Shown here in pieces: positions 130 through 64,000 of a stretch of DNA of 64,000 nucleotides. Each line of letters starts with the position of its first letter. The stretch's first letter is position 1. The position numbers and the translations under genes were made by a program. This DNA is from Bilabrum cf. latius (taxonomy: Eukaryota): the NCBI GenBank assembly GCA_965178125.1, contig OZ237744.1:186001-250000 (forward strand). Reading direction: 5' to 3'. The notes under the pieces were generated by a model. That model saw only the letters and a program-made list of their open reading frames with translations, had not been told where the DNA came from and did no database searches.

Positions 130-1917
130 ATGTTCTCGCTCCCCGTCGCTCGTGTGTGTGCGTTCAGGCCAGGAGATCAAAAGTGGGGAAGTACCGGATG
201 GCTCGCGGGAGTTTCCAGCGTCGTATGGGCCATGACTTGCCTGCTAGGAATCGCAAACGCATCCTGCACCGGCTCCATCTATTAGTATCGCATGGAACAT
301 GTCACGGTGTGTCCGATCCCTTCACCTTTTGATGCGGTGGGCCAGCCGTGCAACACTGGACATGGATGGACCCATCTGCAACTCGACGGCAAAAATTACT
401 GCACCAAGTCGCACTAGACCTTGAAGATCGGCAAGGATGAAAGCATTGGCGCCATGGTCGAGGATATCGAGTGCATGGTCGACGGGCCCAACGACCAGGC
501 GGCTTTCGCGCCTCGGTACTACACTCGACTTCAGGCCGAACTACAGCGAGAAGCAGAGTTGAAGGCAAGCACACCCGCTGCACGCTCTGGCGCTGCCTCA
601 TCAGGTTCGGGTGAAGGCGGGGAGGGCGGCGCAGCCAAAGCGGGTGGTGCTGCCAGCGCGAACCCGATGTGCGATCGCGGAGATCCGGAGGAGCCCACCT
701 ACAGCGGAGACGAGGCACTCGTGTACTCGTGGAAAGAGATCGAGGGCAGCCCTAGAAACCGCCAGGCAGTGGACCAGCTGGCGATTGGAGGCATGTCGCA
801 GCGGGCCCTGTCCATCGGCACGTACTCTGTGAACTCGCTCAACCGAGCCCTGCCGGGAACACCGGTACCTCACGTGTTTGACGTGTCCAAGTTGCCGCGA
901 GACGGTCCTGGAGACGAAGGAAGTGGAGATGATGGCAGTCATGCTGCTAGAGACTGCTTCGTGGCAGCTGCGGCCATCTACCCTCTGTCCGTGCGTGTGT
1001 TCCTGCCTCGCGAGGGCAAGTGCTCGCGAGGGGCCAAGGACATGAGGCACGTGGAATCGACGTACCATGCTGTAGCTCTTTGGGGGCAAGATGGAGAAGC
1101 GTCGGGCGGGGCATCGGGTGGCGCTGCATCTGGCAGAGAGAAGGTGCGGCTCAGCCTGGGACATGCTGCGCGCATAAAGGATTGCATGGAGACAGATGTC
1201 GACTGGCAGGATCTCGGCTCTGCGCTCATCAAGATGGGCCGCAAACCGGATCGCGCGAGAGCTGGGATCCCGTTCAGTGCAGTGGATGTAGGCGCTTCGC
1301 AAGCAGGCATGCACGAGCAGTTCGGGCTTGACCCAGCAGTCGATGAAAACCCGGCCCTGCTCAATGAAGCGGCAGTGGCCATCTAGACGGTAGTGGCGTA
1401 GTGCTTGAAGATCTCGGGGTGCTCAGGGTCCGGCGATGCAGATGGTGAAGGCAAACACAAGTCATCCATGTGCTTCTTCGATGTGGATCTAAAGGGGCTG
1501 CTTGAGTAGCCCGTGTGCACCTCCCCCGTGGCGATGTTCCCCATTGCTCGGGACAAGGGAGGGGCTAGTCAGTGCTTGGCGGCAACCAGGCCTGCAGCAG
1601 ATGCAGATGCAGATGCAGGTACAGGTGCAGGTGCAGGTGCAGGTGCAGGTGCAGGTGCAGGTGCAGGTGCAGGTGCAGGTGCAGGTGCAGGTGCAGGTGC
1701 AGGTGCAGGTGCAGGTGCAGGTGCAGGGATGTCCGAATCGAAGGTGGGGGGTCTGGGAGACTCGTCAGAACAAGCGGGGCATGGTGCTGCTACTGGTGGT
1801 GATGGCACACCTGCAAGCAGCGCGTTTCGGGGGCAGCAGTAGCCAGGGCGCCGCAACCCATTGCGGAGGAATCGCCGCCGAGACGGTGGATCAAGTGGCT
1901 CTAAGGCTGGGAAATGA
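130..1917 (+). CDS. Hypothetical protein, possibly secreted, with a (Gly-Ala)n tract
   Basis: One frame from ATG 130 (alternative ATG 232) to TGA 1915-1917 joins ORFs 421..1386 and 1513..1842. Its only interruptions are TAGs at 283, 415, 1384, 1399, 1507 and 1840. Hydrophobic N-terminal stretch; no recognisable domain. Confidence 0.6.
1615..1727 (+). repeat. (GCAGGT)n hexanucleotide microsatellite, about 18 units, encoding (AG)n
   Basis: Directly visible tandem repeat inside the first CDS. Confidence 0.95.
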
Positions 1918-2103
1918 TGAGACCAACAGACTGTGCCTTGCTTCCAACTTGTGCCAACGTATTCCGACTGTGCATGAAGGACCCGGAGACAAACGGCCAA
2001 ACTTGCATCGAGGGCCTGATTGGGGCACCACAATTAAAGTTTGAAAAGTGCACCGAGCCGATCCCCGGATCTGTATAGAAAACTATTCTGAGCAGTGTCT
2101 CCT

Positions 2104-4449: not shown

Positions 4450-4612
4450 GTATGTATTAGTGCTGCATAAACAGTGGATTCCGGGAGCGCAACCTCAGGA
4501 GAGGAGAATCCCTGACCGCCGCTCGGTGCTTCGGCAGCTTTTCCGGTTTTCTTGAACCAGGTTGATCCGGCTCAGTCGAGCATTTCTCCTTTTGCAGTAG
4601 CACTAGCAACAC

Positions 4613-5521
4613 ATGGCGGCAGTAGCAACGAAAGCAGCTTTGTCTTCAGCTAGTCTGGCACTTCGTGGCTCACGTCCAGCCATTTTGACCAAGCTTATGT
4701 CTGTGATGGGAGAGATCGCGCCGCTCCGATTCGCTGGCTCGTGGGACAATGTTGGTTTACTAGTCGACACTGCGAGGCCCGATATACCAACGCCAGCAAA
4801 GATTTTTGTCACGAACGATCTCACGGAAAAAGTTGTGGGCGAGGCCATCGCAGAGGCTGTAGACATTATTGTCACGTATCATCCGACGCCGTTCCGGAAG
4901 CAAAACAAGTTCACCCGGGCAGATCCGACGTCAAGGATACTACTTGCATGCGCTCACCACGGAATTGCAGTGTATGCGCCTCACACTGCCCTTGACTGCG
5001 CGGAGAACGGGTTGAACGACTGGCTGGCATCTTCGTGCGGGCCGGGTTCCTCTGTTCCTATCAGCCCGGACAAGATCACGCCTGCGGCTGGTGAGGGCAG
5101 GCTCCGAACGCTCGATGAGCCAACAGCTCTGAGCGATGTAATTGAGAGGGTAAAGAAGCACCTGGGCTTGGATAACGTTCGGGTTGCCATCGCGATGGAC
5201 GCGTTGGAATCGTCCAAGGCCTCGAGCGACTCTGTCGCCAAGGCGGCCGAGAGCGTGCTGGTGCGCACCGTCGCGGTCTGCGCTGGTAGCGGCGCGTCAG
5301 TGGTGGGTGGTGTCAATGCCGACGTCTACCTGACTGGGGAGCTGTCCCACCACGACTGCTTGGCTGCCAACCACGCGGGACGCACCGTGATTCTGACGGA
5401 CCATTCGAACACCGAGAGAGGTTACCTGCCCACGCTGGCCTCCCGGATCAAGGAGGGCATGGGAGAAGACGCGGAGGTTGTGGTGACCAAGCTGGATGCG
5501 GATCCGCTCGTCATTGTGTGA
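4613..5521 (+). CDS. NIF3: NIF3-like protein (NIF3L1/YbgI, DUF34)
   Basis: Motifs WDNVGLLV, YHPTPF, PHTALD, VAVCAGSG, YLTGELSHH and HSNTERGYL. No internal TAG; ends in TGA. Confidence 0.95.
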   Translation: MAAVATKAALSSASLALRGSRPAILTKLMSVMGEIAPLRFAGSWDNVGLLVDTARPDIPTPAKIFVTNDLTEKVVGEAIAEAVDIIVTYHPTPFRKQNKFTRADPTSRILLACAHHGIAVYAPHTALDCAENGLNDWLASSCGPGSSVPISPDKITPAAGEGRLRTLDEPTALSDVIERVKKHLGLDNVRVAIAMDALESSKASSDSVAKAAESVLVRTVAVCAGSGASVVGGVNADVYLTGELSHHDCLAANHAGRTVILTDHSNTERGYLPTLASRIKEGMGEDAEVVVTKLDADPLVIV

Positions 5522-5759: not shown

Positions 5760-8700
5760 TCACGCCCTTGTCCGCCTGCCCCCCCTTGCCCCTGCACCGA
5801 CCCTGCTCTTGCCCTTGCCCTTAGAACGCGATCTTCCAGACGAAGGAGACTTCGTAGACTTGGAAGGGGAGGAGGCCTGCGTCCTCCTGCGCTTCGCCGG
5901 GGCAGCTTCCTCCTCATCTTCCTCCTCTTCTTCCTGCCCCTCGTCGCTGTCGCTGCCGCTGCCGCCCGCATCGTCGTCCTCATCCACAGCACCGAGCCCA
6001 CCAGCGATCCGAAGCCCAGCCTCCTCGTCTTCGTCCTCCTCGTTTCTTTCTTTCCCTCCCGCCCCATCGAAAGCCTCCCCCTCGATTGCCAGCTGTGCCT
6101 CCGTGGCGCGAGACCGCTGCCGCGCCCGGGCCACCGACCCCGCGCTCAGGGCGCCAGCGTTCACACCGGCCTACCTGGCGCGTGCAGTGCTGGGGGGTCG
6201 CACCGACGGCGACATTCGTCCCGTAGAAGGAGGCAGGGCCTTGCGAAGGCCGCTCATGCCGTGCCCCTTAGCGGGGGTCTGCGGCACAGTGGCCTCTGCG
6301 GCTGCCGCCCGTGCGACGCTTGCCGAGCCCTGGCTTGCTGCTGCTGCGGCTGCAGCCGGTAGCCTGGGCTTGCCCCTGAACGTGCCAGGCGCCGGCCCGA
6401 ACTTGTCGAGGTCCAGCGTGGCGGATCCAGATGACTGCCTCTGCGAGTCGTGGTAGATGCCCACCAGCCCGTCTGCCTTCCCGTAGAAGCTGTCCTTGAG
6501 CGAAATGACGATGCACTGCAGCGGGACGCCCCTTCGAGGGTGCGACCTCTGCTGGATGTAGTGGCACACCTTGTGCACGTTCACGTTGTCCAGTGCCGCA
6601 TCCACCTCGTCCAGCACGAAGAAAGGGGAGGGGTGGTAGTGGTGGATGGCGAACAGGAGGGCAAGGGCTGCCACGGTCTTCTCTCCACCGGACAGCTGCT
6701 CCATGTCGCGGAAGTGCTTCCCGGGCGGAGACACGTTGTACCGGATGCCACCTCCTGCGAAGGGGTCCTCTTCGTTCCAGAGGTGCAGGCTCGCCTGCCC
6801 GCCGTGCACGTGCTTGGATGACCGCGTCAGCGCCTTGTACACCGAGTCGATCTTGCTGCGGACCGCGCTGTACGCGTCCATGAAGAGCTTCAGCCTGCGC
6901 TTGCGCACGCGCTCGAATGCCTTGGCCACCTGCTCCGCCTGCCCTTGCTTGGTCCTCGTTTCTGCCCTCTGCGTGCTGAGGCGCTTGGTCACGTCCTCGA
7001 GCTGATCGCCGGCCTTCATGTTGGGCGCAGAGGCCTGGATCTTGAGCCGCAGGACGCGGACCTGCTCCTGCAGCGACCTTGCCATGCTGTCTACCGCTCG
7101 CGAGTTCAGGTCAGACGCACGAGCCTTGGCGAGGAGCTCCGGCATCATCTTGTCGAAGTCGATCCGGGACGCGCGGTCCGCGTCCCGTCGCACGACAGAG
7201 GTGCTTCCCCTCGCGAATCGAGCAGAGGACAGCCGGGAGCTGCTGGCGCGCGTGCCGCTTGTGCCCGTCTCAATGCCCTCGTCGTCCATGGAAGCAGAGG
7301 CGGCCTGGCTCCCGCCCCGGCCCTTGGAGCCCTTCCGGCTCCTGCCCTCGTCCTCGTCCTCGTCCGCCTCATCGTCATCATCATCGTCCTCATCGCCCTC
7401 ATCGTCCTCTTTGAGAGGCACGACCACCTGGTCCAGCTCGAGCTGCGTGAGCAGGTCGTGCCTCTGAGCCCGCCCCTTCTGGAGCTGTGCCTCGGCGCCG
7501 TGGTGCGCCTTGGCAGCTTCCGCGCGCCTGCGGCCGGCCAGTGCCCTCCTCTCCCTGGTGCGGCGGACCTTGTCCTCCTGCCCCTGCACCTCCTCGCGGG
7601 CGGTGTCCACGGCCTGGCGGCGCTTAAGGAGCAGCTCTTCGGCGGCGTCCGCGGCTGCCTTGGCCTTGTCTGCGGCTGTGCCTGCTTTGCTCGCGGCCTT
7701 GTCGGCCTGCTCAGCTGCCTGAAGAGCTGCATCCCTGCGCTTCTCCAGGTCAGTGCACCTGTCAGCATCGCACTCCTCCTTCTCCTACAGCCTCTGCACG
7801 TGCTCCTGCCTCTCCTTGCTCCTCTTCTCGCTCGCCTCGTGTCTCTTGAGGACCGTGTCCTCGTAGTCGCGGATGCTGCCCAGCCCCAGTCGCTTGCATA
7901 GCGGCTCAAACACGCCAGATTCCATGCCCTCCACTTCCTCGGCCAGAGCGTCGATCTGCTCCTGCTGCTCCTGGGACTCTGCCTGGGCGGCTGCCAGCTT
8001 GGGCCGCACGTCGGCGAGCATCTTACGGACCTCACCAGCCTCGGCCTGCTTGGCGGCCCGCTGTGACGTCACTCGCTCCGCGTCGGCCTTGATGGTAGTG
8101 CGGCGGGCTTCGAGCGTCTGCAGCTGCGCGCGGATGCGAGCGGCCTCCCGCAGCGCCGTGCCGTCCATCGCGCCGGCGCCCGCATCGTCTCCACCGGCGG
8201 CGGCAGCGCCACCCTCGCCGCCCTCGTCCCCCGCTGCAGCAGACCCGCTGCCCAGCCCGAGGCGCCTCCTCAGCACGGCCTCCTCGCGCAGCAGCTCGTC
8301 CCTCCTCTTGCGCAGCCCCGCCAGCTCTTTCTCACTCACCCTCCTGCGCGAGCCAGCCCTGTCCAGCGCGCTGGCGCCGCCCGTCATGTTCCCGTTCTTG
8401 GCGATGACGACTCCGTCGAGGGTCACGAACTTGGTCTCCTTGCCCTTCTTGAAGCGCTGCTCCGCGGCGTCTTCCAGCGTGTTGGCCACGATGATGTTGC
8501 CGCAGACATAGTCCAGCGCGGGCGCGAAGCGGCTGTCGGCGCGCATGACGTCCCGAAGCCGCCTGAAGGCAGACCCGAGGTGGTCGAATGCAGAGTCTCT
8601 TGGCTTGGGGCGGAGGTCTGCCATGGGCAAAAAGAGGCAGGGCTTCACCCTCCTCTCTCGCAGGAACTCGATGCAGCGAGCCGCTGCCCCCGAGGTCTCC

Positions 8701-10968
8701 ACCACGATGGCGTCGCCGTACCGGCCCATGCCCACGTCCATGGCAGTCGTGTACCTCCCGTTGGTAGGCTCCACGAGGTCCACCAGCCTCCCGTGCACGT
8801 CAGGGAACAGCCTCTGCAGCTCGGCGATGGCCTCGGCCACTCTGCGGCCCGCCTCGCTCTCCTGCCGGTGGCTGGAAGCCTCCTCCAGCCTCTCCCGCAC
8901 GGTCAGCAGCTCGCCCGCCATGGCAGACTGCCGCGCCCTCCCCTCGTCCACCTCGCCCTGCACCTCGACCAGCTTGGCGGTCGAGCGCGCGGCCTCCTCC
9001 CCCAGCTTCTTCTCGGCAGCGAGGAGCTTCTCCAGCGTGGCACCATGCTTGCCTGCCTCCGCCTCGAGCACTTCCAGCTTCTGCGCGAGCGTCTGCTCCT
9101 CCTGCTTTAGGTCCTCCAGCCGGCGGGTCGACTGCTCCTGCTGCCTCCTGAGGCTGTCCAGCTCTGTTCTCTGCGTGCCGGTGAGCTGCCTTGCCTCTGC
9201 CTTCCTCTCCCTGTACTCGGCCAGGTCCTTCTTTCCCAGCTTCATCACTTTCTTGCCGGGGGACCCAGCGGCGCCAGATCCCTTGCTCTTGCGACGGGCG
9301 CCAGCCGCCTCCTCCTCCTCCTCGTCCTCCTCCTTCTGGGCCTGCTGCAGCTCCTCGATGTCGGATCGCAGCTTCTCCAGCGCTTGGGTCAGCTCCTTGA
9401 GCTCCTTGTCGGCCTTGGCAGCCGCCTCTCGCTCCCTCTTTGCCTTGGCTAGGGCAGAGCGCTGCGCCGCAGACCTCTCTTCCCGGATGCCCTCGGCCGT
9501 GCGGTAGGCCTTCTCCTACTTTGCGAGTGCCTGCTGCTGCTTGCTCATTGCCTGCTTGGCCAGCTTGTGCTCTTGGTTGGCCTGCTTGAGTGCAGTGCCC
9601 GCTTCTTCTTCCTCCTCCTGGCAGCCCTGGAGCTTCTCCGCCTCTCCCGTGGCAACCTACCTCTGCGCCTCGATGGTCTGCTCCACGTGGTGCAGCCGCC
9701 AGAGGGCCAGCTGTGTCTTGAGCTCCGACTGCGGCGGGTAGGGGGAGCAAATGAACGGGAAGCGGGGCATGGGGTGCGTATGAGGGTGCGGGGGGGGGGA
9801 GGTGGCGGTAATGCACGTCGAAAGCAGCACAGACCCGGGGGCAGGGAGCGTGGGCGTGGGTGGCTCGCAAGGGGAGCTGGGAGGCAGCTGGCGGCGGGGG
9901 TCGGACGGAATTGCCGGCCCCGTCAGCGTTAAGTGTCCGATTATTTGGTGCTATGGATCGATGGATCGCATGCCCCCCCCTCCCTCCCGGTGCTCGCTCG
10001 CGATCGCTTGCTGTCAGGCCTCACCTCGTCGTCCACGAGCTTCTGGTAGGCGTCTGCCTCGGCCTTCTGGTCCTGCACCGTCTTCTGCTCGGCGCGAAGA
10101 CTTCTTGCGCGCTAATTGGCGTACATAGCCTCGTCTCTCTTGCGCTGGAGCTCCTGCTCGAGCCGGTCGTAGCGGTCAGCAAGCGAGTGCGATCCGCTGA
10201 CCTGTTCGAAATGCGCCATCAGGCGCTCCGGAGACTGGCTCGCAATGCTCTCCACGTCTCCCTGAAAGACAAGGAAGTTTTTTGCCCGGGCGATGAGACC
10301 AATCTTCCTGAGGCGGGTGTGGTACTCCTTCTCGGAGACAGCCGTGCCGCCAAACCTGTACTGGGATGCTCCCGCCACTACCGATCGCCGCAACTCCAAT
10401 TCATCTCCGGCATCATATCCTTCAATTTCATCGTGAGGTCCTACGGTGTACATCAGGCGGACATCGGCTCTTCGCTGCGGTGGAGCTGGGCCGTCGCCGG
10501 CGTATACCAGGTCCTGCAGACGAGTTCCTCTCAAATCCCTGGTTGCCACTCCAAGCACGAAGCAAATCGCATCCATTAGATTACTCTTGCCTGCGATAAA
10601 CGATTGGTACCATATTCAGAGCAGTTCGTGGCCTTGCGCGGTGGTCAGTGGGTATCGCCCACGGAGCTGCCATCGGTGGGCGATGAGATACAAAGTGCTC
10701 TGCTCGCGATATTGCACTCCTTGCCTCCCACCAGACCACAGTTCAAGTATATTTCTCTAGGAATCAAGACAATGCGGCCTAAACGGATCGGTTGAGACGA
10801 AAATGACGACCGCCGGCGTTCCTGAGGCAGATGCTCACCAGATCCATTGGGCCCAATCACTGCCGTAAAGTCCTTGAAAGGACCAATTGTCATCCTTCCC
10901 CCATAGCTTTTGAAATTTTCTAGGATGATACGGTCAATACGCCCAGCGACGGGCGCAGAGGCTGCCAT
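5760..10968 (-). CDS. SMC1: Structural maintenance of chromosomes protein 1 (cohesin subunit)
   Basis: N-terminal LENFKSY and Walker [21 protein letters not shown], split by intron 10591..10838. Second intron 9729..10024. Hinge VHGRLVDL...VTLDG...GNMTGG. C-terminal [18 protein letters not shown] and [12 protein letters not shown]. In-frame TAGs at 10112, 9657, 9516, 7785 and 6171; TGA at 5760. Confidence 0.95.
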
Positions 10969-11142
10969 GGTAGCTGTCGAAACTCTGCTCCCAATTCGAA
11001 CCGGCCGAGAATCGCAAAGTAGCGTGCATAAATAATCCGATTTAGCTCTGCTGCCGTTTCGAAAAACGGATCTACTGCAGTAGAACAAAAGGACTTACAC
11101 GCTAGAAAACGTCAAAATCGTTAGTCCTTTGGGTTGTTCCCT
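10969..11142. promoter_or_regulatory. Probable bidirectional promoter between SMC1 and the DNAAF5-like gene
   Basis: 174-bp, lower-GC gap between two divergent start codons. Inferred from the arrangement only. Confidence 0.5.
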
Positions 11143-25893: not shown

Positions 25894-25903
25894 TATCAAC
25901 GAA

Positions 25904-37619: not shown

Positions 37620-37766
37620 GGGGCAGCACGGGAGGGTTGCGGTCTCCGAGTCGAAACCCGGAACTCAAGTCCATTGTGTGGATACAAATTATTCTGGTAT
37701 TCTGGTGGATCCAAAATCTGTTTTGGCGGTTCAGTGCAACCATCTTCAAGAATTTCCCGAAATTGC

Positions 37767-49100: not shown

Positions 49101-49368
49101 ACGTCCAGTGACTGCTTCCTGGCACTTGACCACACCTAGCTGCGACAGCTGCGAGATCTTGCTGGCGCTATTGCCTGCTTGCATGACTATAGCTTACTTT
49201 TGCGCCCGCTAAGGCCTAAAAAATTATAGCCTGAGTCTCTGGTGCTCCTAATGCGTCGACATTCAACAGAGTCTTCAGATCTGGCTTGCTGCTACTCGTT
49301 GTTGATGTAGCGCTTGTTGCAGCACCAGTAGCTAGCTGTGATGTATCGTATTCTTCGAGCGGGTCCAT
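46150..49368 (-). CDS. HEAT/armadillo-repeat protein
   Basis: HEAT motifs HTNRFVREAA, DNWSQVRFAA, NHAVRGAAA and LLDDTVATVRRSAA. TAGs at 49216, 49168 and 48295; ends in TGA. Confidence 0.75.
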
Positions 49369-49711
49369 GTGCACAAAACAAACAAAATTGCTCTGTTCAA
49401 AGTTGATTGAAGGCGAAATCTGCGATGCCGACTTCGGAATGTTCGGTCGGTGAGGTTCCAGGTTCGGTCAAGGACTGCTGGCCAGTGCCTGGTGCTCCGA
49501 CAGGAACCCTAGGGACATTGAACTGAATGCACAGAGGTATGGCCCGCAATCGATGCCCTAGAGACGACTGCGCGGGCGGAAAGCTGCTGCATTGCAGCCT
49601 GCAGTGCTTGATCTGCCTAGCTGCTGGTCATGCACTGCCAGTACACCCGTCTGTCAGGACGATCCAAATGGTAACTTCACAAGCAAGATCATCCCATGGT
49701 TTTGCATCATA

Positions 49712-50686: not shown

Positions 50687-50747
50687 CAGTCTTAGAATTT
50701 GCTTAATGCCAAACAGGACGCACAGCTACTCGATCCGGGATCCGGAT

Positions 50748-53645: not shown

Positions 53646-54578
53646 TCACCCATGACCATACCTGAGACTACCTTTAGCACCACCACCACCACCACCACCA
53701 CCACCACCACCGACAGGGACGTAGTGTCTCACCCAATCACACACCATGTACTGGGGAAACACCGTGTCATTGGCCGGCTTGCCCGGGAACCCTCCCCCCA
53801 CGGCCAGGTTCAGTATGAAGAACCAGTCGTGCTCCTCGTTCACCTTCTGGCTCCAGCCGTTCACGACCGCAACCTGATCGTCGTTCAAGTAGTAAATCAA
53901 CTGATCATGTTCCCTGTCAATATTCGCTCCGAACACGTGGTACGTCTCGTTGTACAGGTGCGTGGAGTTGGCGGGCAGCGGGGTCGAGTAGTTGCCCAGG
54001 GAAGCCTCCTGGGCATGCCCGCACGTCTTGCTGTCGTTCGCCCAATGTGCAGCCCAGTGCTACGTTTGTTCCCCATGCGCGCCGTGCACCTGGCCGTGGC
54101 GCTTTCCGCCGACGCTTTCCATGATGTCGATCTCGCCAGAAACCGGCCAGCAACTCCCGTTCTGCGGCATGAGCCAGATTGCCGGCCATAGACCTTGGGA
54201 AAGGCCGTGCGCTCCGACGTAGTACATGCAGCTGGCCTCGAATCGCCCTTCTCTGGCCCACCGTTTTGAGTTGCCGTCGATCCAGCCGCTCACGTACGGA
54301 TGGTTGCTGGACGTGTTTAGGTCTTTGGAGCGATCGGCCGTCAGTACTAGCGTTCCATCTTTGACGGACACCTGCTCTGGAATGTACCATTCCAGTTCTC
54401 GACTGCCATGCTCCCCTGTCTTGAGGTTCCAATTGCTCTCATTGATTTCGTTGCCGTTGAATTCGTCTTGGAAGTCGAGGTTCCATCTGCTGGGATCAAA
54501 CGGAGGAGCTGGCTAAGCTAGTGCTGCGAATGAGATCAATGTCAGTCCGACGAGCGAGGCCACGGCTTGCAGCTTCAT
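53646..54578 (-). CDS. Secreted GH16 beta-1,3-glucanase (laminarinase-like)
   Basis: Signal peptide MKLQAVASLVGLTLISFAALA. Motifs FQDEFNG, GLWPAIWLMP, catalytic WPVSGEIDIME, FILNLAVGG and FPQYMVCDWVR. Poly-Gly tail. TAGs at 54513 and 54060; ends in TGA. Confidence 0.9.
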
Positions 54579-54733
54579 TGGCTCGCGCCTTGCCTGTGAT
54601 GACGCGCTCTTCGGAACTGCAACGAATCTTTGGCGAACCTTCGATCTCATCAAGTGACCCGGAAAGGCGCCGAGGAAACTTCCTCCACTGTACTTTGCGT
54701 GCCTACACTAGAAATCCGGCTGAAGGCGCTACA

Positions 54734-56875
54734 ATGGGTTACGAACCAAATGGGCGAATCACATACATGCACAACCAGCCGCGGTGAGTTCCGTTTACTG
54801 CCGTTTGTCCGGCCGTATAACGCCAATGGTGCGCAATGGTGCCTTGCTTCGACTGGTGGGGTGGTAGCTCTTCCTTCATTCGTATGGAGCACACGCTTGC
54901 CATGCATCCAGTCCATATGCGCTGTTCTGCATTTGTTTCGGACATCAAGCTTTCCCGCAGCCCTGGCGACGGCCAGATTCCTATCGACGTGGCTCTCAAT
55001 GGAGACGACGAAGCTGTTCAAGCCGCGTGGGAGGAGTACGCTCGTGGCGTTGCAAGCTACGGCATCTCTATCGCTGTCGTTGGTACTATTTTCGCCGTTA
55101 CAGTGGCAATTTTCAGTTGCGTTGCGTGCGCCCAGGCATGCGGTTTCAAAGGCGACTTTTGCAAGAAGCCGAGCTTGATTCCCAGGATGATTAGCATCTG
55201 GGCGTTTGCGGCCATGATTGGTGTCGCAGCGCTCCTGAGCATTATTGCTCCTACTTCGGTGCGAAATATCGGTCAAGCCTACGTGGACGGGTTGGATACG
55301 GGAATCGACTTTTTAGAGATTTCGGTCCGTCTCGGCGATGAGGTCGAAAGCATCGGCGACGGTCTGGACAACATGACCACAGCAGCAAACAACATCAACG
55401 ATGAGCTGGCGGGCAATCCCCAAGCGCAGGATCTGCGCACGGCCATCAACGACTTCATCGGCGCCGTGAGCGATTCCGCCGCCGACGTCAAGTCATCTGG
55501 TGGCGACATTGCCGATTCGACCAAGGACGCCCGGCAGTCGCTCGTGGACCTGCGGGACGCAAACGTGAGGGGACAAATCAGTCGCGGAACCAACTCGAAC
55601 GCCATCCTCAACTTTTTGTTCTTCGTGACCTTCGCGGTGGCCGGCGCCCTGCCCTTCCTGCCTACCTTTATGCCGATCGCGCACAAGTTCCTCACCGGCA
55701 TCACGTGCTGCTGCTGCGTGCTTCCCACCTTTTGGGTAGCCGGCGTGCTCGGCGTGATTGCCATGGTCGGCAGCGACGTGTGCTTCGACATCGAGGACAC
55801 GCTGGTGGCCATCGTGGAGCTGGGGCAGGACGAGGATGACGCGACACCGAGGGCGCTATCCGTGGCTGCACTGGCCGGCAGCCAGATGGAGGAGGAGGAA
55901 TACAGCACCGGCGATCAGTCCGGTTTCGGGTCAATTGCCGCCTCTTTCGCAGCCAAGGGGGCATGGTACGCGGCGGATGCATCGGGGCTGCCAGTATCCC
56001 AGTGGCTGGAGGCAGAGGCAGAAGATGCCAATAGTGCTGCAGTGCGCGTGCTGCAGGTGGACGACGACGACATCGCACCCGCTGGCAATGACGACGACGT
56101 CCCAGGCGACACGGGCGTGGACACTCTCAAGTACTACCTCAAGTGCCACGAGTCGAACCCCCCGCCGCTCCCCAGCGTGCTCGCCACAGCGCGTGACGGC
56201 GCCAACACCTTCTATTCGACGTCCAACGACCTCAACAGAATCGTAGATCAACTCGAGCAGTACTACACGCAGATCCCCGAGCTGGAGGGCCATGTAGTCA
56301 CCATGCGCACCGGCTTCCTGACGATCAACGAGTCGGTGGCTGACACGATGGACCTCTTTTTGTGCGACGGAGTCAACGAGCCCATCTACAACTTCATCTC
56401 GATCGTGTGCAACGACGCCGTGGGCAACGGCATCGTGCTTGCCTTCTAGCTGATGGCAGGCACCGCCTTCATGGCAGTAATCGGCATGGTGCCCAACCTC
56501 TTCATCCTGGCCAGGCACCCCGCTGAGGAATACAAGGAGCCTCAGGTGGTGAGCATCACAGTCAACATGGTGGGAGGCGTGCAGCCGGTGGACGGCGCGC
56601 AGCCGGTGGACGGCGTGCAGCCCAACCCGGTGAATGGGTACGAGGCGCAGGCAGGTGGATACCCAGGTGCGACGGCGGGATCAATCAACGCGCCTCCGGA
56701 GAGCCAGCCGGAGTTCCATGACCCTGTCAAGGCGCCGAGTGCGCCGGTGGCCCCGCCAGTCACGCCTCACGCGGGCCAGTTGACCGTGCCCTCTGGCCAG
56801 TCTCCCTTCCTCGCCCAGCCGCCGTCGGCACCAGAGGCGCCTCCTGCCGGCTTCGTCAAGTAGGAGCCGTTCTGA
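54734..56875 (+). CDS. Tweety-family (TTYH-like) multi-pass membrane protein
   Basis: Exon 1 MGYEPNGRITYMHNQPR; intron 54784..54960. About five hydrophobic helices, SDVCFD, YYLKC, a C-x14-C pair before the last TM helix and a Pro-rich tail. TAGs at 56447 and 56861; TGA at 56873. Confidence 0.7.
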
Positions 56876-57202: not shown

Positions 57203-59366
57203 TTAGCCGACCACGGAGAGCTCGGCAGGCGGCGCCACGAACGCCGCGCTGCTGCCCGCGTCTCCTCCCGCCGGCGCCCCAGCCACCTCGCCGGTCTTGC
57301 CTCCTCCGGCTCCGCTGCTCGCGCCCTCCTCGATGGCATCGTGCTCCTCAAGCGGTGCGTCTTGCCTGATCATTTCCACAGCGACGTCCGCCGACACGCC
57401 CATCTCCATGGCCTCCATGCCCAGCGCCGTCCTGCTGGCGACGCGGTTGTCCATGACCTCGTCGAAGAGGACAGAGTCTCCGCACAGCGAGTGGAAGAGC
57501 TGGTAGTTGAACTCCCCCGTGGTCTTGTCCACCAGCCTGATGCACATCTTGTCGATGGCCACCATGCTCAGCACCGTCTGCACGAAGCCGTCGATAAGGT
57601 CGTCCAGACCCAGGCCCAGAGTGTTGAAGTCCTTGCGGTCCATGAGCAGCAGCCTGTCAGTCTCGCTCGTCCACTCGAGGTCTCCCTGCAGCTTGGACAG
57701 GTTGGTACCCAGCATGCTCCAGCTGCTCTTGCCGGTGGCCTCCCCGGTGAGCGGCTCGGCTGCGCGGCGCGCGTACGCGGCGAGCGGCCTGTAGCCCTCC
57801 TTGGTCGATGACACCATCATCCGGAGATCGGCCACGAAGATCCGGTTGTGCCGGTCGGGAATCGTGCCCGTGTGGTAGAAGGTGCCGTCCCTCTGCCTCG
57901 AGCTCCACGCCGAATGCCCGATGAGGCTCTGCACGATGTAGCTCGAATAGTAGTGCGAGTCCTGCATGAACGCGTCCAGCTCCTCCTTGTTCAGGATGGT
58001 GTACACGCCCTGTCCCGCGTTGAGGAAGGGAACCTTCACTACACCGTGGCCGCCGAACTTCTTGATCCAGAGGGGGACCTCGTGCTTGCGCGCAGAGTGG
58101 CACGTCTCCGGGGTCCTGATCCGCAGGCCGATCCCCTTGGTTTCCAGCTCCGAGTTGAGGATGTCGTAGGCCACCGCGCCCATGGCCTTGTTCCTCCCAC
58201 CCGCCAGGCAGGGCAGCAAGGGGTTTAGGATCCTAGTCTTGCACTTGATCGGGAATCGGGTCCACGGCCTCTGGGTCACGTATCGGAACGCAGCGCGGAC
58301 GGGCTTCCACTCCTCCTCAGACTTTGCCTCGGCTGCTCCGGCCGCTGCAGAGCCCTCCCCTGCCTTGGCAACGCCCCCGCCCTTGCCTAGCGCGGTGGCC
58401 TGTGACACGCGCACCTCCATCACACCGTCCGCCGTCCAGCGGACGGGAGGCGTGTCGTCGGTGAGATAGAACTCAACGAGGTAGACGGGCTCCTTGGCCA
58501 GGTCCGAGAGAACAGTGGCGTAGCTCGAGGCCTCCATCCTGTTCTTGTCGTACACGACGGCGAGGACACCGCCGGGGACCAGCTTCTCAGTGGCCTCCTC
58601 GTCGAGCAGGTCTCCAAAGGTGGTCTCGAGGAGCCTCTTGTAGGCGCCTTCCTCCTCTGCATCTCGCAGCAGGGGCATGGACTTGCATCCGGAGGGGCAC
58701 GAGTTCGTCTCGACGATGCACGCGCGGCTGCGGACAGGCAATCAAGAGGCGGAAGCAGCTAAATAGTAAAAAAAGAGTAGTAGCTACAAACAGGCCCATG
58801 TGACCGAAAGCCATGGTGCAGCAGCCAGATACAACATATGTACGTATCAAGCGCTGAATGCAGCGATATTCATGCCGCTATCTCACCGGGTGCCCTCTGC
58901 AGTCACGACAGAAAAGGTGTCGCAGCCTCCCCACCTGAAGTGCCTCGGCTTGTAGCGCAGCATGCCGAGGAGGTCATCCTCCTTGCACTCAGGGTGCAGA
59001 TGGCAGTATCGCCTGGCGATACGCTCGATCTTCATGTTCATGAAGCTCAGGACGAGCGGGTGGATGGTGGCGTTGCTCGCGCGCGGGTAGAACGAGCGGA
59101 GCGGATCGAAGGAATCCGGCTCCACCTGCTCGACGCGCCCGTGCTTCACCTTGATCTGGCTGACAGATGCAGATGCAATCGATTTGGCAGTACCATCACC
59201 CATAGGGGCGGGACGAGCGGCGGCTGCGGGGCGCGTGAAAGGGCACTGTTCCGAATGGTCGACCGATTGGAGATGCGATTCTAGACACGCAAGTCACCAC
59301 AGCTTCTGCCACAAGAGAGCTGTGTTACTTTTGTTTCTCACTAGTTCCTGATCCTGCAGCAGCCAT
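57203..59366 (-). CDS. Conserved uncharacterised protein, probable ATP-grasp-like fold
   Basis: Introns 59224..59341 and 58728..58886. Motifs IVETNSCPSG.KSMP, VVKVPFLNAGQGVY, YIVQSLI and VADLRMMV. No TAG; ends in TAA. Confidence 0.65.
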
Positions 59367-59599: not shown

Positions 59600-61404
59600 T
59601 CAAGACCGCTAGGCCACCACAATGGCATACGATGCCGCAGGCATGCTGATTTGAGCATCAGCAGGCATTGACTCGCCCATTCCGATGAGGTCTGGGAGCT
59701 CGTGGCGCTCGTTCACCCGTGCAACCGTGCCAGACACGCTAATCAAACTGCTTGCCAGCCCTTCACCGTCGCCGGGGAGCAGCCGGTACACAACCATGGT
59801 GGAGCCGCAGGAGCCGCCTTGCGCACCGCACCTCAGCGACACGCTCACATCATCGCTTTGCCGCAGGTTCAGGAGCAAAATCGCCGTTGCGTTGCTTCCC
59901 CACCGATGGCCAGATTTCGCCTCAAACGCGTACGCGCGCACGTGCTCCGTTTCGTAGTCGCCGAGCAGCTGCCCCAGTGCTCCTCTGCCTCGCACCGCAG
60001 GGCGAGGCAGAGCAGCCCCTCCGATGATCCTCTACAGCAGCGCGGTCGTGAAGTAGTCGGGGTTGGGGGAGAACTAAATGGGCAGCACCGGGTGCTTGCT
60101 CCCGCCGACGTAATCCAGGAGCGGGTAATCCCCCCCGATGAGGTCCTGCCGGATCATGCCCTGGTGACCCTCCGCGAGCCCGACCTCACCGAGCTCACCG
60201 AGGAGCCACAGCCCGCTCGCGTACCTGTTCGAGACGTTGGCCAGGCCGCCGCCCCAGAAAGAAGAGGTCTCGCCGATGAGCACCGGCTTGCTCGGCGCGA
60301 AGCTCCGGATCGCCCTCGTGACGTTCGGCAGGAACATTCGCCGCATGCGGTCCTGGTACTCGTTCGTGAGCACCATCTGTGATCGAAGAAAGAATAAGAA
60401 TAAAATTGAACGGATGCAGAGTCAGAAATGGAGCAAGAACCTGGGGCGGCAAAAGCAACGAGCAGAGCAGGTGCTCCTCTACGGTAAGAGGCTCTACCCA
60501 GGAGCGAGCAGAGCAGGTGCTCCACTCTGCGAGGCCCAGCCGATCTAAGCATGGTAGCGCACTAGATTTGTCTCACTTGGGCAGAAGAAGTGTCATTTCC
60601 CTGATACTGCGAGTAGTAGTGCCAGGTGACCCGGTCCAGCACCTTCCCGGCGCCCTCCAGTACTTCGGCGAAGAATCGCGTCACGTCTGCACCGTAAATG
60701 GACCGGCATTGCCCCCTTGGGTCTCCCGTCAGACTCGGGTCTGGGCCCCATAGCTCAGTGTCGGGGGTGAGCTCGTCCACCAGTTGTCGCATGCGAACAA
60801 ACCCGCTGGCCATCTGGGCGCCCGTCATATTCGTGACCGCCGAGGAGCAGTTGTACACGTTGCTCTCGTTGCCGAGCTCCCATGCGTGCACGTTTTGCTT
60901 GTTCTTCTTGACGTACTCCAATAGCTCCCGTGCATTGCTCGAGTCCCACTCTGGTGCCTTGTTTGCAGGCACTAGCCCCCGTTGCTGCCTGCCGAATACC
61001 GCGTTGACGCCGTAAACCATTCGCAGTCCTGCTCTGTCGCAAAAATCGACCAACGAGTTCCATAACGAGGCATTCATGTACAGATGATGCAAACCGGTGG
61101 GACTTGGAAGGCCGCTAGGTGGTATCCACCCAGACAGATTGAAAGCTACAAAGTCCTGCACGCTGCCGCCGAAGCGAATGTATGCAGGCCCAATATTCTT
61201 GGCAAGCTGTATGAGAGCCTCGTCACGCAGGTCAACCCGTTCCCTCGTGTAGCCAAATAGGGTTGTGGTATCGATACTGAAGCTGCTCGATAGGGCGTCC
61301 ATCTTCTTGCTTGGTCCAAAACTGACATCCACGACAACTTCAGGAGATACAGCAGACGCATACACGCACATGCTACAGGTAGCAAGCAAGCTGCGCAGAG
61401 CCAT
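59600..61404 (-). CDS. Secreted GH79 heparanase/beta-glucuronidase-like glycosidase
   Basis: Signal peptide. Motifs PAYIRFGGS, WELGNE (acid/base), TWHYY, LIGETSSFWGGG (nucleophile), RQDLIGG and PNPDY. Intron 60377..60576. TAGs at 60074, 60032 and 59609; TGA at 59600. Confidence 0.9.
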
Positions 61405-61949
61405 TGCACTACTTCGACGAGACTCTGGGACCCAAAATCGGCGCCAGGGCCTGCTGCCAAGTGCACTTTACAATTGGGCCGCGAATCTGAGAGGACTCCT
61501 CTGGATTCAGGTGATCACTCGAACTCCTTCGGGGGCAACGGTGCATCTGGGTGCTTGTGGAATCTTTACCCAACAATGTATTTCTGTATTTCTGTATTTC
61601 TGTATCTGTCTGCCTTTTTTACGAATGCCCCCCAGTGGTCACCCCACCGAATCATGGGCCTCAATTCCTGCATTTCACGCTCGAAATGTGGGGGTACACG
61701 CGATTCTCTGGTAGGCAGTCTGTTCCAGATAATGCTCATGCCGTGCCGCGAGATCTCAAGCTGGCCCTGGCCCCTCGCGATGGCCTCACGCCTCCGGTGG
61801 GTCGGGCTTGCCACTGGACGGGCGGGGTGCACGACGTACATTTGCCGCAGTGCACCCGAGTGCAATAACCTTGCTGCAGAGGATGTAGTGAGGGGGCGCG
61901 GAAGGAGATGGAAGGGCAGAATTTCGCCAGGTGGTTGGGAGGCGGGCAC

Positions 61950-64000
61950 ATGATTTCGAGCTGCTTGCTGCTCTTCGCACGATGGTGCAAACCTCGTGCT
62001 GGGCTTGGGATGCATCCAACCGTGAGAGTACGGTAGTACACGTCTGGTAGGTGCGGCCACTTTTGTCTGTCGTCAAAATAGTGCGACCGAGGCGGCAAGC
62101 GACGGCGACCATCCCAAGCCGGAACCAGCATTTTTACACCGGACTTGCACAGCTTCCGGGGCTCAGGCATCGAATTCTTGCCAGGCCAAGCACCTTCTAC
62201 TTTACTGATTAGCATATTCAGTCGATTTTATAGTCTTTCGCAAGATTGGGGCAAGCCAATGCTAGCTGACCGCCAGCAAAATGGCTGCCCGTTCACCACG
62301 ACCTACGGCTAGCGGATGCAAATGTCTGTTTGTTGGTCATTTTCGGTGTTCGTTTTCGTCGGTATAATGATCGGGTTTCCATTGACTCCCAGAATACTTC
62401 GAGGCGGCGACGCTCCCCTCGCCAGATCTGCTCGAGAGCCTGAAACGCTTGCCGCAGTTGGTGGAGTCCTGGCGTGCATTCTCTTGGCTGCCCTAGCTTC
62501 AGAGGTATTTACGTTGTGGGCACGAGAAGTTGAGAGTCAGAATAGAATCGTTCTATTTGGTCTCAATATTAATCGAAAAGAGGACGGCGGGATTGATGTA
62601 CGGTGCAGACCCATAGGAAAGAGCGGCGACGCTCTCAGTGGCTTGACCACGGAAACCACGAAGTCTGGAGCGAGTCATGTGCCAAAATCTTTGGGTGATA
62701 CTGAAGAGACTATGTCTTGGCAGCCCTGTGCATGGTGCAGACGTGGCATTGTGTGGGCTTGCCTTCGCTCTGAATCCGCGGAAGACGCCTCCCTTTGGCT
62801 TGCAAGATCAGTACTGCTGGCGTTTTGGCCGTGTTGGTGCGACATCAGAAGTAGTTGTTGCCATCCTAAAGGAAACACTGGCATGAATGAGCCGTACTGG
62901 GCTGAATAGCTGGAGAGAGACCTGAGACTCGATGCGGTCGTGGAGCAGCCATCCAGCGAGACTGACTCCTAGTCGCGTTCAGCGACCACACCAGCCCCAG
63001 CGGCCCCTTCAGGCTCAATCCAGCCAATAGAGTCTTCTTTACAGGAGGGTAGTGGGTTGCTCTCAGGCGATTCCTTGAACTCTCGTGCAGAGCACAGGGG
63101 TAGGGCTGGCAGGCGCCATGCCCGCAGGGGCAGTGGTGCAGGCGTGGAATCGGCCGTAGCAGGAAAGGCGCCTGTTCGATACATTGACACGCAGCATGTG
63201 TCGCAATTGACTCCCCGTGCGGCGACCAGCTCTGCCCCTGGCAAGTCGCGCGTGTCAGAGAACCCTCCGACTACGCCGCATGACTAGGAGCATGTCAGCA
63301 GGAGCCGAGCAGGGCTTGGCCGAGGGCACAAAGTTGCAGCGGCAACTAGATTCTTGGGAACTGTCGCTGTGCCTGTAATTGCAATCTATATTATCACGGT
63401 GTACGCGGCGGTGCTGGATATCTGCAATGGGCCTGGACGGGGGAGCGGCAAGGTCGTGACCATGTGGATCATGTGGCCGATCATCGCAACAATAGACTAC
63501 GATAGAGTTGCCGTACCGTGGCTTGGCGTGCAGTTGGCATATATTGTATGGGTATTAGCGTTGAATGCAACGATAAGTGGATTAGGAGGAGCTTGGCCGT
63601 TCGGGAGGGCAGACCTCGACGTGCTGCCAGAGGAGCACAGGCACAGTTTCACGAGCCCGCTGGGTCTGAATGCGGTCGGTCAAGCTGGGTTCTTGATATC
63701 TCTGTGGTGCTTTGAGACCGTCAATATTTTACCGGCGCTTAGTCTGGATACGACTTACCTGAGGTGGAGGGTCGAGGTGGCAGAACGTGAGCTGGTCGAG
63801 TCTCGCGTCCGGGCAGCTGAGCAGCAGCGCGCCATCGTGAATACAGTAGTGTCGCAAGTGCCAAAATTTGCATAGGATTGCATGAATCAAGGCATCACGG
63901 CATTTGAAACGAAACCCGTTGTGATGGCTGTGAGAATCAGTGGGCGGCCAGACGAACCAACTCCCGTGCCGAATGCCGGTCTCCCGGATCGCCCAAAAAC
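61950..64000 (+). CDS. Multi-pass membrane protein running off the window end; possibly nucleotide cyclase-like
   Basis: One frame links ORFs 62316, 63057 and 63354 through TAGs (62310, 62907, 62970, 63285, 63873). Several TM helices are followed by a helical linker. Start uncertain (ATG 61950, 62259 or 62316). Confidence 0.5.

What the first reader, a model, noticed from the sequence alone, without database searches (positions are those of the whole stretch)
130..64000. Non-standard nuclear genetic code: TAG is a sense codon while TAA and TGA remain stops
Seen in the sequence: about 100 in-frame TAGs in 19 of 22 genes, on both strands, inside conserved domains (SMC1, PhnW, the kinase, GH16, GH79, the transposase). 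Reading continues in the same frame with recognisable motifs. No internal TAA or TGA was found, for example across 7.2 kb of FANCD2 (about 22 TAGs) and 3.25 kb of the ankyrin gene (about 12 TAGs). All 21 complete genes end in TGA (17) or TAA (4). Established knowledge: UAA and UAG are normally reassigned together in eukaryotes. UAG-only reassignment is rare (NCBI table 15, the fornicate Iotanema spirale, a rhizarian, some ciliates). Inference: this GC-rich genome with 90-300-nt introns does not look like a ciliate, so this may be an undescribed independent reassignment.
Basis: partly seen in the sequence, partly recalled or inferred. Interest (0 to 1): 0.97.

Follow-up and report, generated by a model that had tools for sequence, protein, structure and literature searches.

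The report
TAG codon read as glutamine
This stretch of a GC-rich eukaryote's chromosome uses the stop codon TAG as an ordinary glutamine codon while TAA and TGA still end genes, a rare change of the genetic code known from only a few protists.

Summary
In 22 trimmed coding segments (15,971 codons, both strands) there are 91 in-frame TAG, 0 TAA and 0 TGA. Out of frame, the same DNA has 7.2, 2.6 and 19.1 per 1000 codons. Reading TAG as sense raises the longest open frame from 2,145 to 7,212 nt; reading TAA as sense gains nothing. Gene ends are TGA (18) or TAA (4).

The amino acid is glutamine. In fragments of a relative 80-90% identical, 9 window TAG sites are covered: Q at 7, E at 1, K at 1. 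A 71%-identical PhnW gene on a metagenome contig has two in-frame TAGs, both opposite CAG in the window. So at least three lineages share the code.

Contigs from two other studies carry the same TAGs. SMC1 has GT..AG introns, so this is nuclear DNA.

The code itself (UAG=Gln, UAA/UGA stop; NCBI table 15) is known from Iotanema spirale and some ciliates. This organism is GC-rich, intron-poor and uses mostly TGA stops. Its lineage was not resolved. The tRNA(CUA), eRF1 and RNA could not be examined. Verdict: real, probably a new member of a known kind.

The parts
130..1917 (+). Gene of unknown family, 6 in-frame TAG, ends TGA
   Evidence: no Pfam hit. The 24 codons after the last TAG score as non-coding.
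4562..5521 (+). NIF3/DUF34 gene. No TAG after the ATG at 4613; two TAGs (4598, 4604) lie just upstream. Ends TGA.
   Evidence: Pfam PF01784 E=4e-57
5760..11094 (-). SMC1-type cohesin gene in three exons with GT..AG introns. In-frame TAGs at 10112, 9657, 9516, 7785 and 6171. Ends TGA.
   Evidence: Pfam SMC_N and SMC_hinge; intron 1 runs G|GTGAGC...CGCAG|GC, about 256 nt
11134..16501 (+). DNAAF5-like HEAT/TPR gene, 4-6 in-frame TAG, ends TGA
   Evidence: Pfam TPR_DNAAF5 E=3e-12
16628..22179 (-). Three tandem MIB_HERC2-SPRY modules, the last fused to a protein kinase. Probably one gene joined by GTGAG introns. TAGs at 21058, 19863, 18509, 18113 and 17351, plus three in likely introns.
   Evidence: Pfam. 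The single-gene model is an inference.
23791..25893 (+). Gene of unknown family, 5 in-frame TAG, ends TGA
26283..27320 (+). Gene of unknown family without TAG, ends TGA
27430..28785 (+). PhnW (2-aminoethylphosphonate-pyruvate transaminase). TAGs at 27889 and 28684. Ends TGA at the conserved C-terminus.
   Evidence: PDB 9kk8 E=4e-90; relative L001 at 71% identity with its own 2 TAGs opposite window CAG
28870..32238 (-). Membrane protein gene of unknown family, 9 in-frame TAG, ends TGA
32492..34336 (-). JmjC/Cupin_8 gene, 3 in-frame TAG, ends TAA
   Evidence: Pfam PF13621 E=9e-19
34284..37619 (+). Ankyrin-repeat gene, 14 in-frame TAG (12 after the ATG at 34365), ends TGA
   Evidence: Pfam Ank_2. 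Relative fragments P0154 and P0155 show Q, Q, E and K at four TAG sites and end at two further TAG sites.
37674..38621 (+). AAA_28 P-loop gene, 2 in-frame TAG, ends TGA
   Evidence: Pfam PF13521 E=5e-20
38790..45983 (-). 2,397-codon gene (possibly FANCD2-like), 22 in-frame TAG and no other stop, ends TGA
   Evidence: Relative fragments P0001-P0003 show Q at 5 of 5 covered TAG sites.
46150..49374 (-). HEAT-repeat gene, 3 in-frame TAG, ends TGA
   Evidence: Pfam HEAT
50318..53179 (+). pogo-like DDE_1 transposase frame, 12 in-frame TAG (8 after the Met at 50846), no TAA or TGA inside, ends TAA
   Evidence: Pfam DDE_1. The closest fragments P0007 (83%) and P0010 (58%) have Q at the TAG of residue 430.
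53646..54749 (-). GH16 (SKN1/KRE6-type) gene, 2-4 in-frame TAG, ends TGA
   Evidence: Pfam PF03935 E=1e-12
54836..56875 (+). Multi-pass membrane protein gene, 2 in-frame TAG (one four codons before the TGA)
   Evidence: The homologue on L001 has CAG at the same place counted from the stop (weak, because the alignment is ungapped and anchored at the end).
57203..58741 (-). ATP-grasp-like gene with GC3 0.87 and no TAG, ends TAA followed by two more TAAs
59600..61467 (-). GH79 gene in two exons, 3+1 in-frame TAG, ends TGA
   Evidence: Pfam Glyco_hydro_79n; heparanase alignment
61908..63998 (+). Open frame that runs off the window, 7 in-frame TAG

Best explanation
The window is nuclear DNA of a GC-rich (about 60%), gene-dense, intron-poor eukaryote. 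Its translation system reads UAG as glutamine, and UAA and UGA remain the only terminators. This is the code listed as NCBI table 15.

Shown here:
- TAG is used inside almost every gene at the density of a minor sense codon, about 14% of Gln codons.
- TAG interchanges with CAG/Gln in related organisms.
- TAG is in the DNA of independent read sets.
- The code is shared by at least two further lineages.

Inferred from established knowledge of such codes, and not testable here:
- Decoding is by a dedicated tRNA-Gln with anticodon CUA, which pairs with UAG but not UAA.
- eRF1 has lost or weakened its recognition of UAG while still recognising UAA and UGA.
- Decoding must be efficient. A gene with 22 TAGs would yield almost no full-length protein if each TAG were only a leaky stop.
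For: 1. Codon counts: 91 TAG, 0 TAA and 0 TGA in frame in 15,971 codons of 22 segments, against off-frame densities of 7.2, 2.6 and 19.1 per 1000.
2. Only the TAG-sense reading creates long frames (7,212, 4,254, 4,074 nt and so on). TAA-sense gains nothing.
3. Near relative (Logan-derived proteins, 80-90% identical): 9 window TAG sites are covered, with Q at 7, E at 1 and K at 1. Chance of 7 or more Q in 9 at a Q frequency of 4.2%: 8e-9. 4 of 5 fragments stop exactly at a window TAG, so the relative has stops there too.
4. L001, a PhnW gene 71% identical, has in-frame TAGs at nt 496 and 790. Both lie opposite CAG in the window, and the gene ends with TGA at the same place. A third L001 TAG lies in its copy of the 54836-56875 gene.
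5. Transposase residue 430: Q in the two closest fragments (83% and 58% identity).
6. TAA is not sense. If TAA:TAG followed CAA:CAG (145:432), 30.5 TAA would be expected; 0 are seen (P=5e-14). DNA after the four TAA ends looks non-coding and holds further TAAs.
7. Stretches after the last TAG of a gene score as coding: mean 0.17, against 0.20 for gene bodies and -0.05 for 3' flanks, in 16 tails of 10 or more codons.
8. A 22,338-nt contig of run X5 matches 28436-47399 with 0 differences and covers 51 TAG codons. Listed X6 contigs cover 26 more-or-less overlapping TAG codons, with one difference somewhere in one contig.
9. Purifying selection in these frames: 26 of the 40 shown differences from the relative fall at third codon positions (p=4e-5).
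10. Nuclear origin: GT..AG introns in SMC1.
11. tRNA-Gln(CUA) reading UAG but not UAA, and eRF1 changes in Iotanema, are described in PMC5304391 (passages).
Against: - No tRNA gene lies in the window (ARAGORN; Rfam) and no genome is held. The tRNA(CUA) and eRF1 parts are therefore inference only.
- No RNA or peptide evidence was available.
- At variable positions of distant homologues the TAG columns are not Gln:
  - PhnW column 100: A, A, K, A in PDB chains; K, R, E, K, R in loci.
  - PhnW column 365: E, E, H, E in PDB chains; R, R, R, R, A, R in loci.
  - GH79: N and K in heparanase.
  - Transposase: Q is the commonest residue, tied with R, at only 1 of 8 covered TAG sites. Residue 614 (149 homologues) reads E41, D24, A16, K15, Q11.
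  These residues are polar and compatible with Gln but do not single it out.
- The relative's fragments are found where it lacks stops, which biases the sample towards sites where TAG has been replaced.
- The relative's DNA was not seen, so its stops are only presumed to be TAG.
- Frames were chosen as free of TAA and TGA, so the zero counts are partly built in. The frame lengths and the CAA:CAG argument are what carry weight.
- Residues next to TAG resemble those next to R, Q and L equally well.
Confidence: 0.9

Rival explanations
1. UAG is ambiguous. It is read as Gln inside genes but still ends some genes, depending on context, as in Condylostoma or Blastocrithidia for other codons.
For: - Two genes have a TAG within four codons of their TGA (59609 in GH79, 56861 in the 54836-56875 gene).
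- The 24 codons after the last TAG of the 130-1917 gene score as non-coding.
Against: - 16 tails of 10 or more codons after the last TAG score as coding on average (0.17 against -0.05 for 3' flanks).
- The L001 homologue has CAG at the place of the near-terminal TAG of the 54836-56875 gene (weak).
- No gene needs TAG as its end. PhnW ends with TGA at the conserved C-terminus in both the window and L001.
Confidence: 0.05
2. Both UAG and UAA are Gln codons (table 6 type, as reported for Amoeboaphelidium protococcarum). TGA would be the only stop, and TAA would simply be rare because the genome is GC-rich.
For: UAA and UAG usually change together (PMC5304391, passages). The window is a small sample, with only 4 TAA gene ends.
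Against: - 0 in-frame TAA where 30.5 would be expected from the CAA:CAG ratio.
- TAA-sense reading lengthens no frame.
- After the TAA ends, further TAAs follow within 5-12 codons in two genes, and the sequence looks non-coding.
Confidence: 0.02
3. UAG is a sense codon for another amino acid (Glu, Lys or Leu).
For: - One window TAG site reads E and one reads K in the near relative.
- Distant homologues show E, K or R at several TAG columns.
- Residues beside TAG resemble those beside R and L as well as Q.
Against: - Q at 7 of 9 sites in the near relative.
- Both L001 TAGs lie opposite CAG.
- Q in the two closest transposase fragments.
- E and K are each one base from TAG or CAG, and are ordinary replacements at 80-86% identity.
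Confidence: 0.02
4. The DNA really has TAG stops that are not translated as such. Either the genes are pseudogenes or assembly artefacts, or the mRNA is edited (U to C) back to CAG.
For: No RNA data could be examined. TAG and CAG differ by one transition.
Against: - Independent contigs from two other studies carry the same TAGs.
- Decay or general C-to-T error would also produce TAA and TGA, and none is seen. U-to-C editing would equally tolerate TAA and TGA.
- The frames are under purifying selection (26 of 40 differences at third positions) and are kept in relatives.
Confidence: 0.01

Closest known systems
Iotanema spirale (Fornicata): UAG=Gln, UAA and UGA stops (PMC5304391; passages read)
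   Same: Same code table. A non-ciliate nuclear genome in which UAG alone was reassigned to Gln.
   Different: Iotanema mostly uses UAA as terminator (passage). Here TGA ends 18 of 22 frames, in a 60% GC genome. Iotanema's eRF1 has a T32G change in the GTS motif; eRF1 could not be examined here. I did not test whether the two are related.
Ciliates with UAG-only reassignment to Gln: Hartmannula sinica, Trochilia petrani, Protocruzia tuzeti (PMC11687900; passages)
   Same: Same reassignment. It was inferred in the same way, from internal UAG at conserved Gln positions (58-70% of sites in that paper; 7 of 9 here against a close relative).
   Different: Those ciliates end 93.5-100% of aligned C-termini with UAA. 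This window has long genes of up to 7.2 kb on one large chromosome piece, with 250-nt GT..AG introns and GC 60%. From my own knowledge, not from any call, that is unlike ciliate macronuclear DNA.
Amoeboaphelidium protococcarum (aphelid parasite of algae): UAG and UAA both Gln (PMC6299283 passage; PMC5304391 passage)
   Same: A non-ciliate with stop-to-Gln reassignment. It is associated with algal cultures, and a relative of the window organism is present in a run labelled algae metagenome.
   Different: TAA is not a sense codon here. The Amoeboaphelidium genomes have GC of 40% (PMC10608142, Table 1), against 60% here.
Rhizarian exLh (UAG=Leu) and Scotinosphaera (UAG=Ser) (PMC5304391; PMC11687900 passage)
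   Same: UAG is uncoupled from UAA in a non-ciliate nuclear genome.
   Different: A different amino acid. Gln is supported here at 7 of 9 sites, with Leu or Ser at none.
Code 15 in crAss-like and Lak phages (search listing only)
   Same: TAG read as Gln while TAA and TGA stay stops.
   Different: Those are phage genomes in bacterial hosts that use a phage-borne suppressor tRNA. Here it is a cellular nuclear genome with spliceosomal introns.

Membership tests
UAG=Gln, UAA/UGA=stop nuclear code (NCBI table 15 type) | UAG occurs in frame inside conserved, selected genes | tested here: met
   91 TAG in 15,971 codons of 22 segments. They lie inside the PhnW, GH79, SMC1 and DDE_1 alignments. Third-position bias of substitutions: 26 of 40.
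UAG=Gln, UAA/UGA=stop nuclear code (NCBI table 15 type) | UAG corresponds to glutamine in homologues | tested here: met
   Q at 7 of 9 sites in the near relative. 2 of 2 L001 TAGs lie opposite window CAG. Q in the two closest transposase fragments. Distant homologues are uninformative.
UAG=Gln, UAA/UGA=stop nuclear code (NCBI table 15 type) | UAA and UGA are not sense codons and do end genes | tested here: met
   0 in-frame TAA against 30.5 expected, and 0 TGA. 18 TGA and 4 TAA ends with non-coding-looking flanks. This covers the window only, not the whole genome.
UAG=Gln, UAA/UGA=stop nuclear code (NCBI table 15 type) | A tRNA-Gln with anticodon CUA is encoded | not testable with these tools
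   No tRNA in the window. No genome is held.
UAG=Gln, UAA/UGA=stop nuclear code (NCBI table 15 type) | eRF1 N-domain altered so that UAG is not recognised | not testable with these tools
   eRF1 is not in the window, and no genome is held.
UAG=Gln, UAA/UGA=stop nuclear code (NCBI table 15 type) | UAG present in mature mRNA and Gln present in peptides | not tested
UAR=Gln code (NCBI table 6 type) | UAA is also used in frame as Gln | tested here: not met
   0 in-frame TAA in 15,971 codons. The TAA-sense reading does not lengthen frames.
Ambiguous stop/sense codes (Condylostoma, Blastocrithidia type) | The reassigned codon also ends genes near the 3' end | tested here: inconclusive
   No gene needs a TAG end, and tails after the last TAG score as coding. 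But two genes have a TAG within 4 codons of the TGA and one tail scores as non-coding.

The most novel reading that the evidence does not exclude
This is an independent and so far unreported origin of the UAG=Gln / UAA+UGA=stop code. It would lie in a GC-rich, intron-poor eukaryote clade that is neither a ciliate nor a fornicate, has at least three divergent members in public data, and would be the first such lineage in which UGA rather than UAA is the main terminator. Such a clade could also be the kind of host postulated for the TAG=Gln giant virus noted elsewhere in this scan (e1-5483482).
Probability: 0.5. Interest if true: 0.75.

Novelty: new member of a known kind. Interest (0 to 1): 0.62.

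Why it matters
- Gene prediction. Genes of this organism and its relatives are cut into pieces by any annotation that uses the standard code. The relative's proteins in public collections are such pieces. The assembly should be annotated with table 15.
- Evolution of the code. Each new case of UAG changing without UAA tests the idea that the two codons are coupled. This one sits in a GC-rich genome whose main stop is UGA, unlike the known cases that mainly use UAA. That bears on whether rarity of UAG as a stop (codon capture) or a change in eRF1 comes first.
- Material for experiments. Runs from three studies hold the same sequence. The organism may therefore be in culture, which would make tRNA and eRF1 experiments possible.
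- The transposon. An apparently intact transposase with 8-12 TAGs suggests that mobile elements have evolved under the changed code. From general knowledge, such a code can act as a barrier to gene exchange.

Tried and rejected
**Expression**
- No RNA holder is listed for the 7.2-kb gene, so expression and the RNA-level state of TAG could not be looked at.

**Reads**
- Read laying showed that runs X8 and X9 hold a relative 6-12% divergent over the whole 20 kb.
- Only 40 of 2,335 differences were printed, and none falls in a TAG codon.

**Searches that found nothing**
- Near-length homologues of the 2,397-aa protein.
- Metagenome scan with the same protein.
- Viral contig scans with the ATP-grasp protein and PhnW.
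- PDB search with the AAA_28 protein.
- Rfam and ARAGORN on the window.
- Earlier findings of this scan for this genome, look-alike stretches and P0001.
- The genome-contig scan gave only bacterial PhnW at about 50% identity (Verrucomicrobiales and Anaerolineales MAGs).

**Lineage: attempts that were inconclusive**
- Atlas look-alikes of the ATP-grasp protein are bacterial clusters.
- Those of NIF3 are Ascomycota-rich clusters (a lead only).
- The nearest named transposase homologue is from the ascomycete Drechslerella dactyloides at 35% identity.
- Window proteins are not in the protein collection, and the relative's fragments carry no names.

**Candidate organisms rejected**
- Amoeboaphelidium: GC 40% and UAR=Gln.
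- Iotanema is unlikely on stop usage.

**Other analyses**
- Neighbour-residue analysis of TAG could not separate R, Q and L.
- PDB and bacterial alignments of PhnW and GH79 give polar but non-Gln residues at TAG columns.

**Literature**
- The paper 10.1016/j.cub.2022.08.071 is not held.
- Karpov et al. 2013 was seen only as cited by others.
- Supplements were not opened, so tables there on codes of other protists may bear on novelty.
- 'Not in print' rests on searches of the held library only.

Full report
**What the window is**

GC is 56-67% along the 64 kb. Under the standard code the longest open frame is 2,145 nt. With TAG read as sense, frames of 7,212, 4,254, 4,074, 3,372, 3,366 and 3,318 nt appear. 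With TAA as sense nothing is gained (longest 2,145). With TGA as sense the longest is 2,754, although TGA is about twice as common as TAG in the DNA (ORF lists).

The long frames encode recognisable eukaryotic proteins (Pfam):
- NIF3;
- an SMC1-type cohesin subunit in three exons;
- a DNAAF5-like protein;
- MIB_HERC2-SPRY modules fused to a kinase;
- PhnW (PDB E=4e-90);
- a JmjC protein, an ankyrin protein, an AAA_28 protein and a HEAT protein;
- a pogo-like DDE_1 transposase;
- a GH16 of SKN1/KRE6 type and a GH79.

SMC1 intron 1 has a GTGAGC donor inside the Walker A motif and a CAG acceptor about 256 nt away. This is spliceosomal, nuclear DNA.

**The observation**

In 26 stop-to-stop pieces I count 119 in-frame TAGs. 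After trimming to probable coding parts there are 22 segments with 15,971 codons:

| Codon | In frame | Off frame, per 1000 codons |
|---|---|---|
| TAG | 91 (5.7 per 1000) | 7.2 |
| TAA | 0 | 2.6 |
| TGA | 0 | 19.1 |

TAG is therefore not avoided in frame, while TAA and TGA are absent. Because the frames were picked as free of TAA and TGA, the zeros are partly built in. What cannot be built in is their length: for example 2,397 codons with 22 TAGs.

Frames end with TGA (18) or TAA (4). The DNA behind them looks non-coding, with further TAAs within a few codons in two of the four TAA cases.

**TAA is not a second glutamine codon**

CAG:CAA is 432:145. If TAA were used relative to TAG in the same proportion, 30.5 in-frame TAAs would be expected. 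None is seen (P=5e-14).

**The TAGs are real DNA and the frames are selected**

- Run X5, from another study and under another organism label, has a 22,338-nt contig identical to 28436-47399. That stretch holds 51 of the TAG codons.
- Run X6, from a third study, has identical contigs over 26 TAG codons, with one unplaced difference in one contig. These may still be the same strain.
- Runs X8 and X9 hold a relative 6-12% divergent over the whole 20 kb.
- Of the 40 differences printed, 26 fall on third codon positions of my frames (p=4e-5). The other 2,295 were not shown.

**Which amino acid**

*The near relative.* The protein collection holds five pieces of the near relative's genes, cut by a standard-code gene caller: P0001-P0003 (86-89% identical to the 2,397-aa protein) and P0154-P0155 (80-85% identical to the ankyrin protein).
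- Nine window TAG sites lie inside these pieces. Seven read Q: residues 1084, 1237, 1884, 2071 and 2335 of the large protein, and 297 and 324 of the ankyrin protein. One reads E (283) and one reads K (770).
- Four of the five pieces stop exactly where the window has TAG (1393, 1929; 533, 1051). The relative therefore has stops there too, on contigs that carry the next piece of the same gene.
- This sample is biased towards sites where the relative has replaced TAG, and I did not see its DNA.

*A more distant relative.* Metagenome contig L001 encodes a PhnW 71% identical to the window's.
- It has in-frame TAGs at nt 496 and 790. Both lie opposite CAG in the window.
- It ends with TGA at the same position as the window gene.
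- Its copy of the 54836-56875 gene has another TAG, and it has CAG where the window has its near-terminal TAG (weak).

*The transposase.* The two closest fragments (83% and 58% identity) have Q at the TAG of residue 430.

*Results that do not point to Gln.* Distant homologues have A, K, R, E or H at the two PhnW TAG columns and N and K at the GH79 columns. They have mixed residues at the other transposase columns; residue 614 reads E41, D24, A16, K15, Q11 of 149. These are variable polar positions. Residues flanking TAG fit R, Q and L equally well.

**Is TAG ever a stop?**

Stretches between the last TAG and the TGA or TAA score as coding on average: 0.17, against 0.20 for gene bodies and -0.05 for 3' flanks, over 16 tails of 10 or more codons. 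Three tails score negative.
- Two belong to the MIB_HERC2-SPRY modules at 19824-20969 and 21019-22179. There the 'TGA' overlaps a GTGAG donor, and the peptide before it (…RVCRGKDW) continues into the next module's KWGDQDG, as in one MIB_HERC2 domain. These three 'paralogues' are probably one gene (inference).
- The third is the tail of the 130-1917 gene.

Two genes have a TAG within four codons of the TGA. An ambiguous code is therefore not excluded, but nothing requires it.

**Mechanism**

*Shown:* efficient sense use of UAG as a minor Gln codon (13.6% of Gln codons), shared by at least three lineages.

*Inferred:*
- A tRNA-Gln(CUA) does the decoding. By the Tetrahymena experiments cited in PMC5304391 (passage), such a tRNA reads UAG and not UAA.
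- eRF1 no longer recognises UAG efficiently. In Iotanema a T32G change in the GTS motif was proposed (same passage).

Neither could be checked. There is no tRNA in the window and no genome is held.

**Comparison with what is known**

- UAG-only reassignment to Gln is described for Iotanema spirale (PMC5304391) and for Protocruzia tuzeti, Hartmannula sinica and Trochilia petrani (PMC11687900; passages). UAG=Leu is known in a rhizarian and in other ciliates, and UAG=Ser in Scotinosphaera (same passages).
- The described Gln cases end genes mostly with UAA. Here TGA dominates, in a 60% GC genome.
- Amoeboaphelidium, an algal parasite with UAR=Gln, is excluded by TAA use and by GC of 40%.
- None of my searches of the held library turned up a GC-rich non-ciliate with this code. 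Papers of subscription journals and supplements were not seen.

**Lineage**

Not resolved. Hints towards fungi or their relatives are weak and database-biased:
- NIF3 look-alikes sit in Ascomycota-rich clusters;
- the GH16 is of SKN1/KRE6 type;
- the nearest named transposase homologue is from an ascomycete.

The DNAAF5-like gene would fit a flagellated cell (recalled knowledge, not tested here). A relative is abundant in a run labelled algae metagenome.

**Verdict**

The codon means glutamine, and the code variant is already known. The organism is probably a new bearer of it, with an unusual GC-rich, TGA-terminating background. I score interest at 0.62 rather than 0.97.

Noticed in passing
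16628-22179 (-): Three near-identical MIB_HERC2-SPRY modules in tandem, the last fused to a coiled coil and a protein kinase. The 'stop' of the first two overlaps a GTGAG donor, and the split MIB_HERC2 motif continues in the next module. This is probably one repeat-built gene rather than three paralogues.
   Followed up: partly
57203-58741 (-): A 512-aa gene with very high GC3 (0.87), no TAG and a TAA end. It has no Pfam hit. Its Atlas look-alikes are bacterial (Bacteroidota-rich) hypothetical proteins and ATP-grasp families, so it may be a gene of bacterial type in a eukaryote.
   Followed up: partly
50318-53179 (+): A pogo-like DDE_1 transposase frame that is interrupted only by TAG (8-12 times) and ends with TAA. 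It appears intact under the changed code. Fragments of related transposases, 43-83% identical, exist in Logan and ENA assemblies.
   Followed up: partly
27430-28785 (+); L002-L006: Apart from L001, the closest PhnW relatives found by my two collection scans are bacterial, at about 50% identity (Verrucomicrobiales and Anaerolineales MAGs). No other eukaryotic homologue was retrieved with the tools used.
   Followed up: partly
L001:1-1698: In this metagenome contig PhnW lies tail to tail with a homologue of the window's 54836-56875 membrane protein gene. In the window the two genes are 26 kb apart, so gene order differs between the two relatives.
   Followed up: no
38790-45983 (-): The 2,397-aa protein has no homologue of similar length in the 5.8-billion-protein collection and no Pfam domain. 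Only its last roughly 170 residues weakly resemble the FANCD2 C-terminus (E=0.0096).
   Followed up: partly
about 1600-1720 (+): A run of about 20 Ala-Gly dipeptides (a GC-rich microsatellite) inside the 130-1917 frame. Similar low-complexity Ala/Gly/Ser/Asp-Glu runs occur in many genes of the window.
   Followed up: no
another genome (earlier finding e1-5483482): An earlier report of this scan describes a soil giant-virus window that reads TAG as Gln with TAA and TGA as stops, and whose host is unknown. A lineage like the one here would be a candidate kind of host. No sequence link was found: viral contig scans with two window proteins gave nothing.
   Followed up: partly
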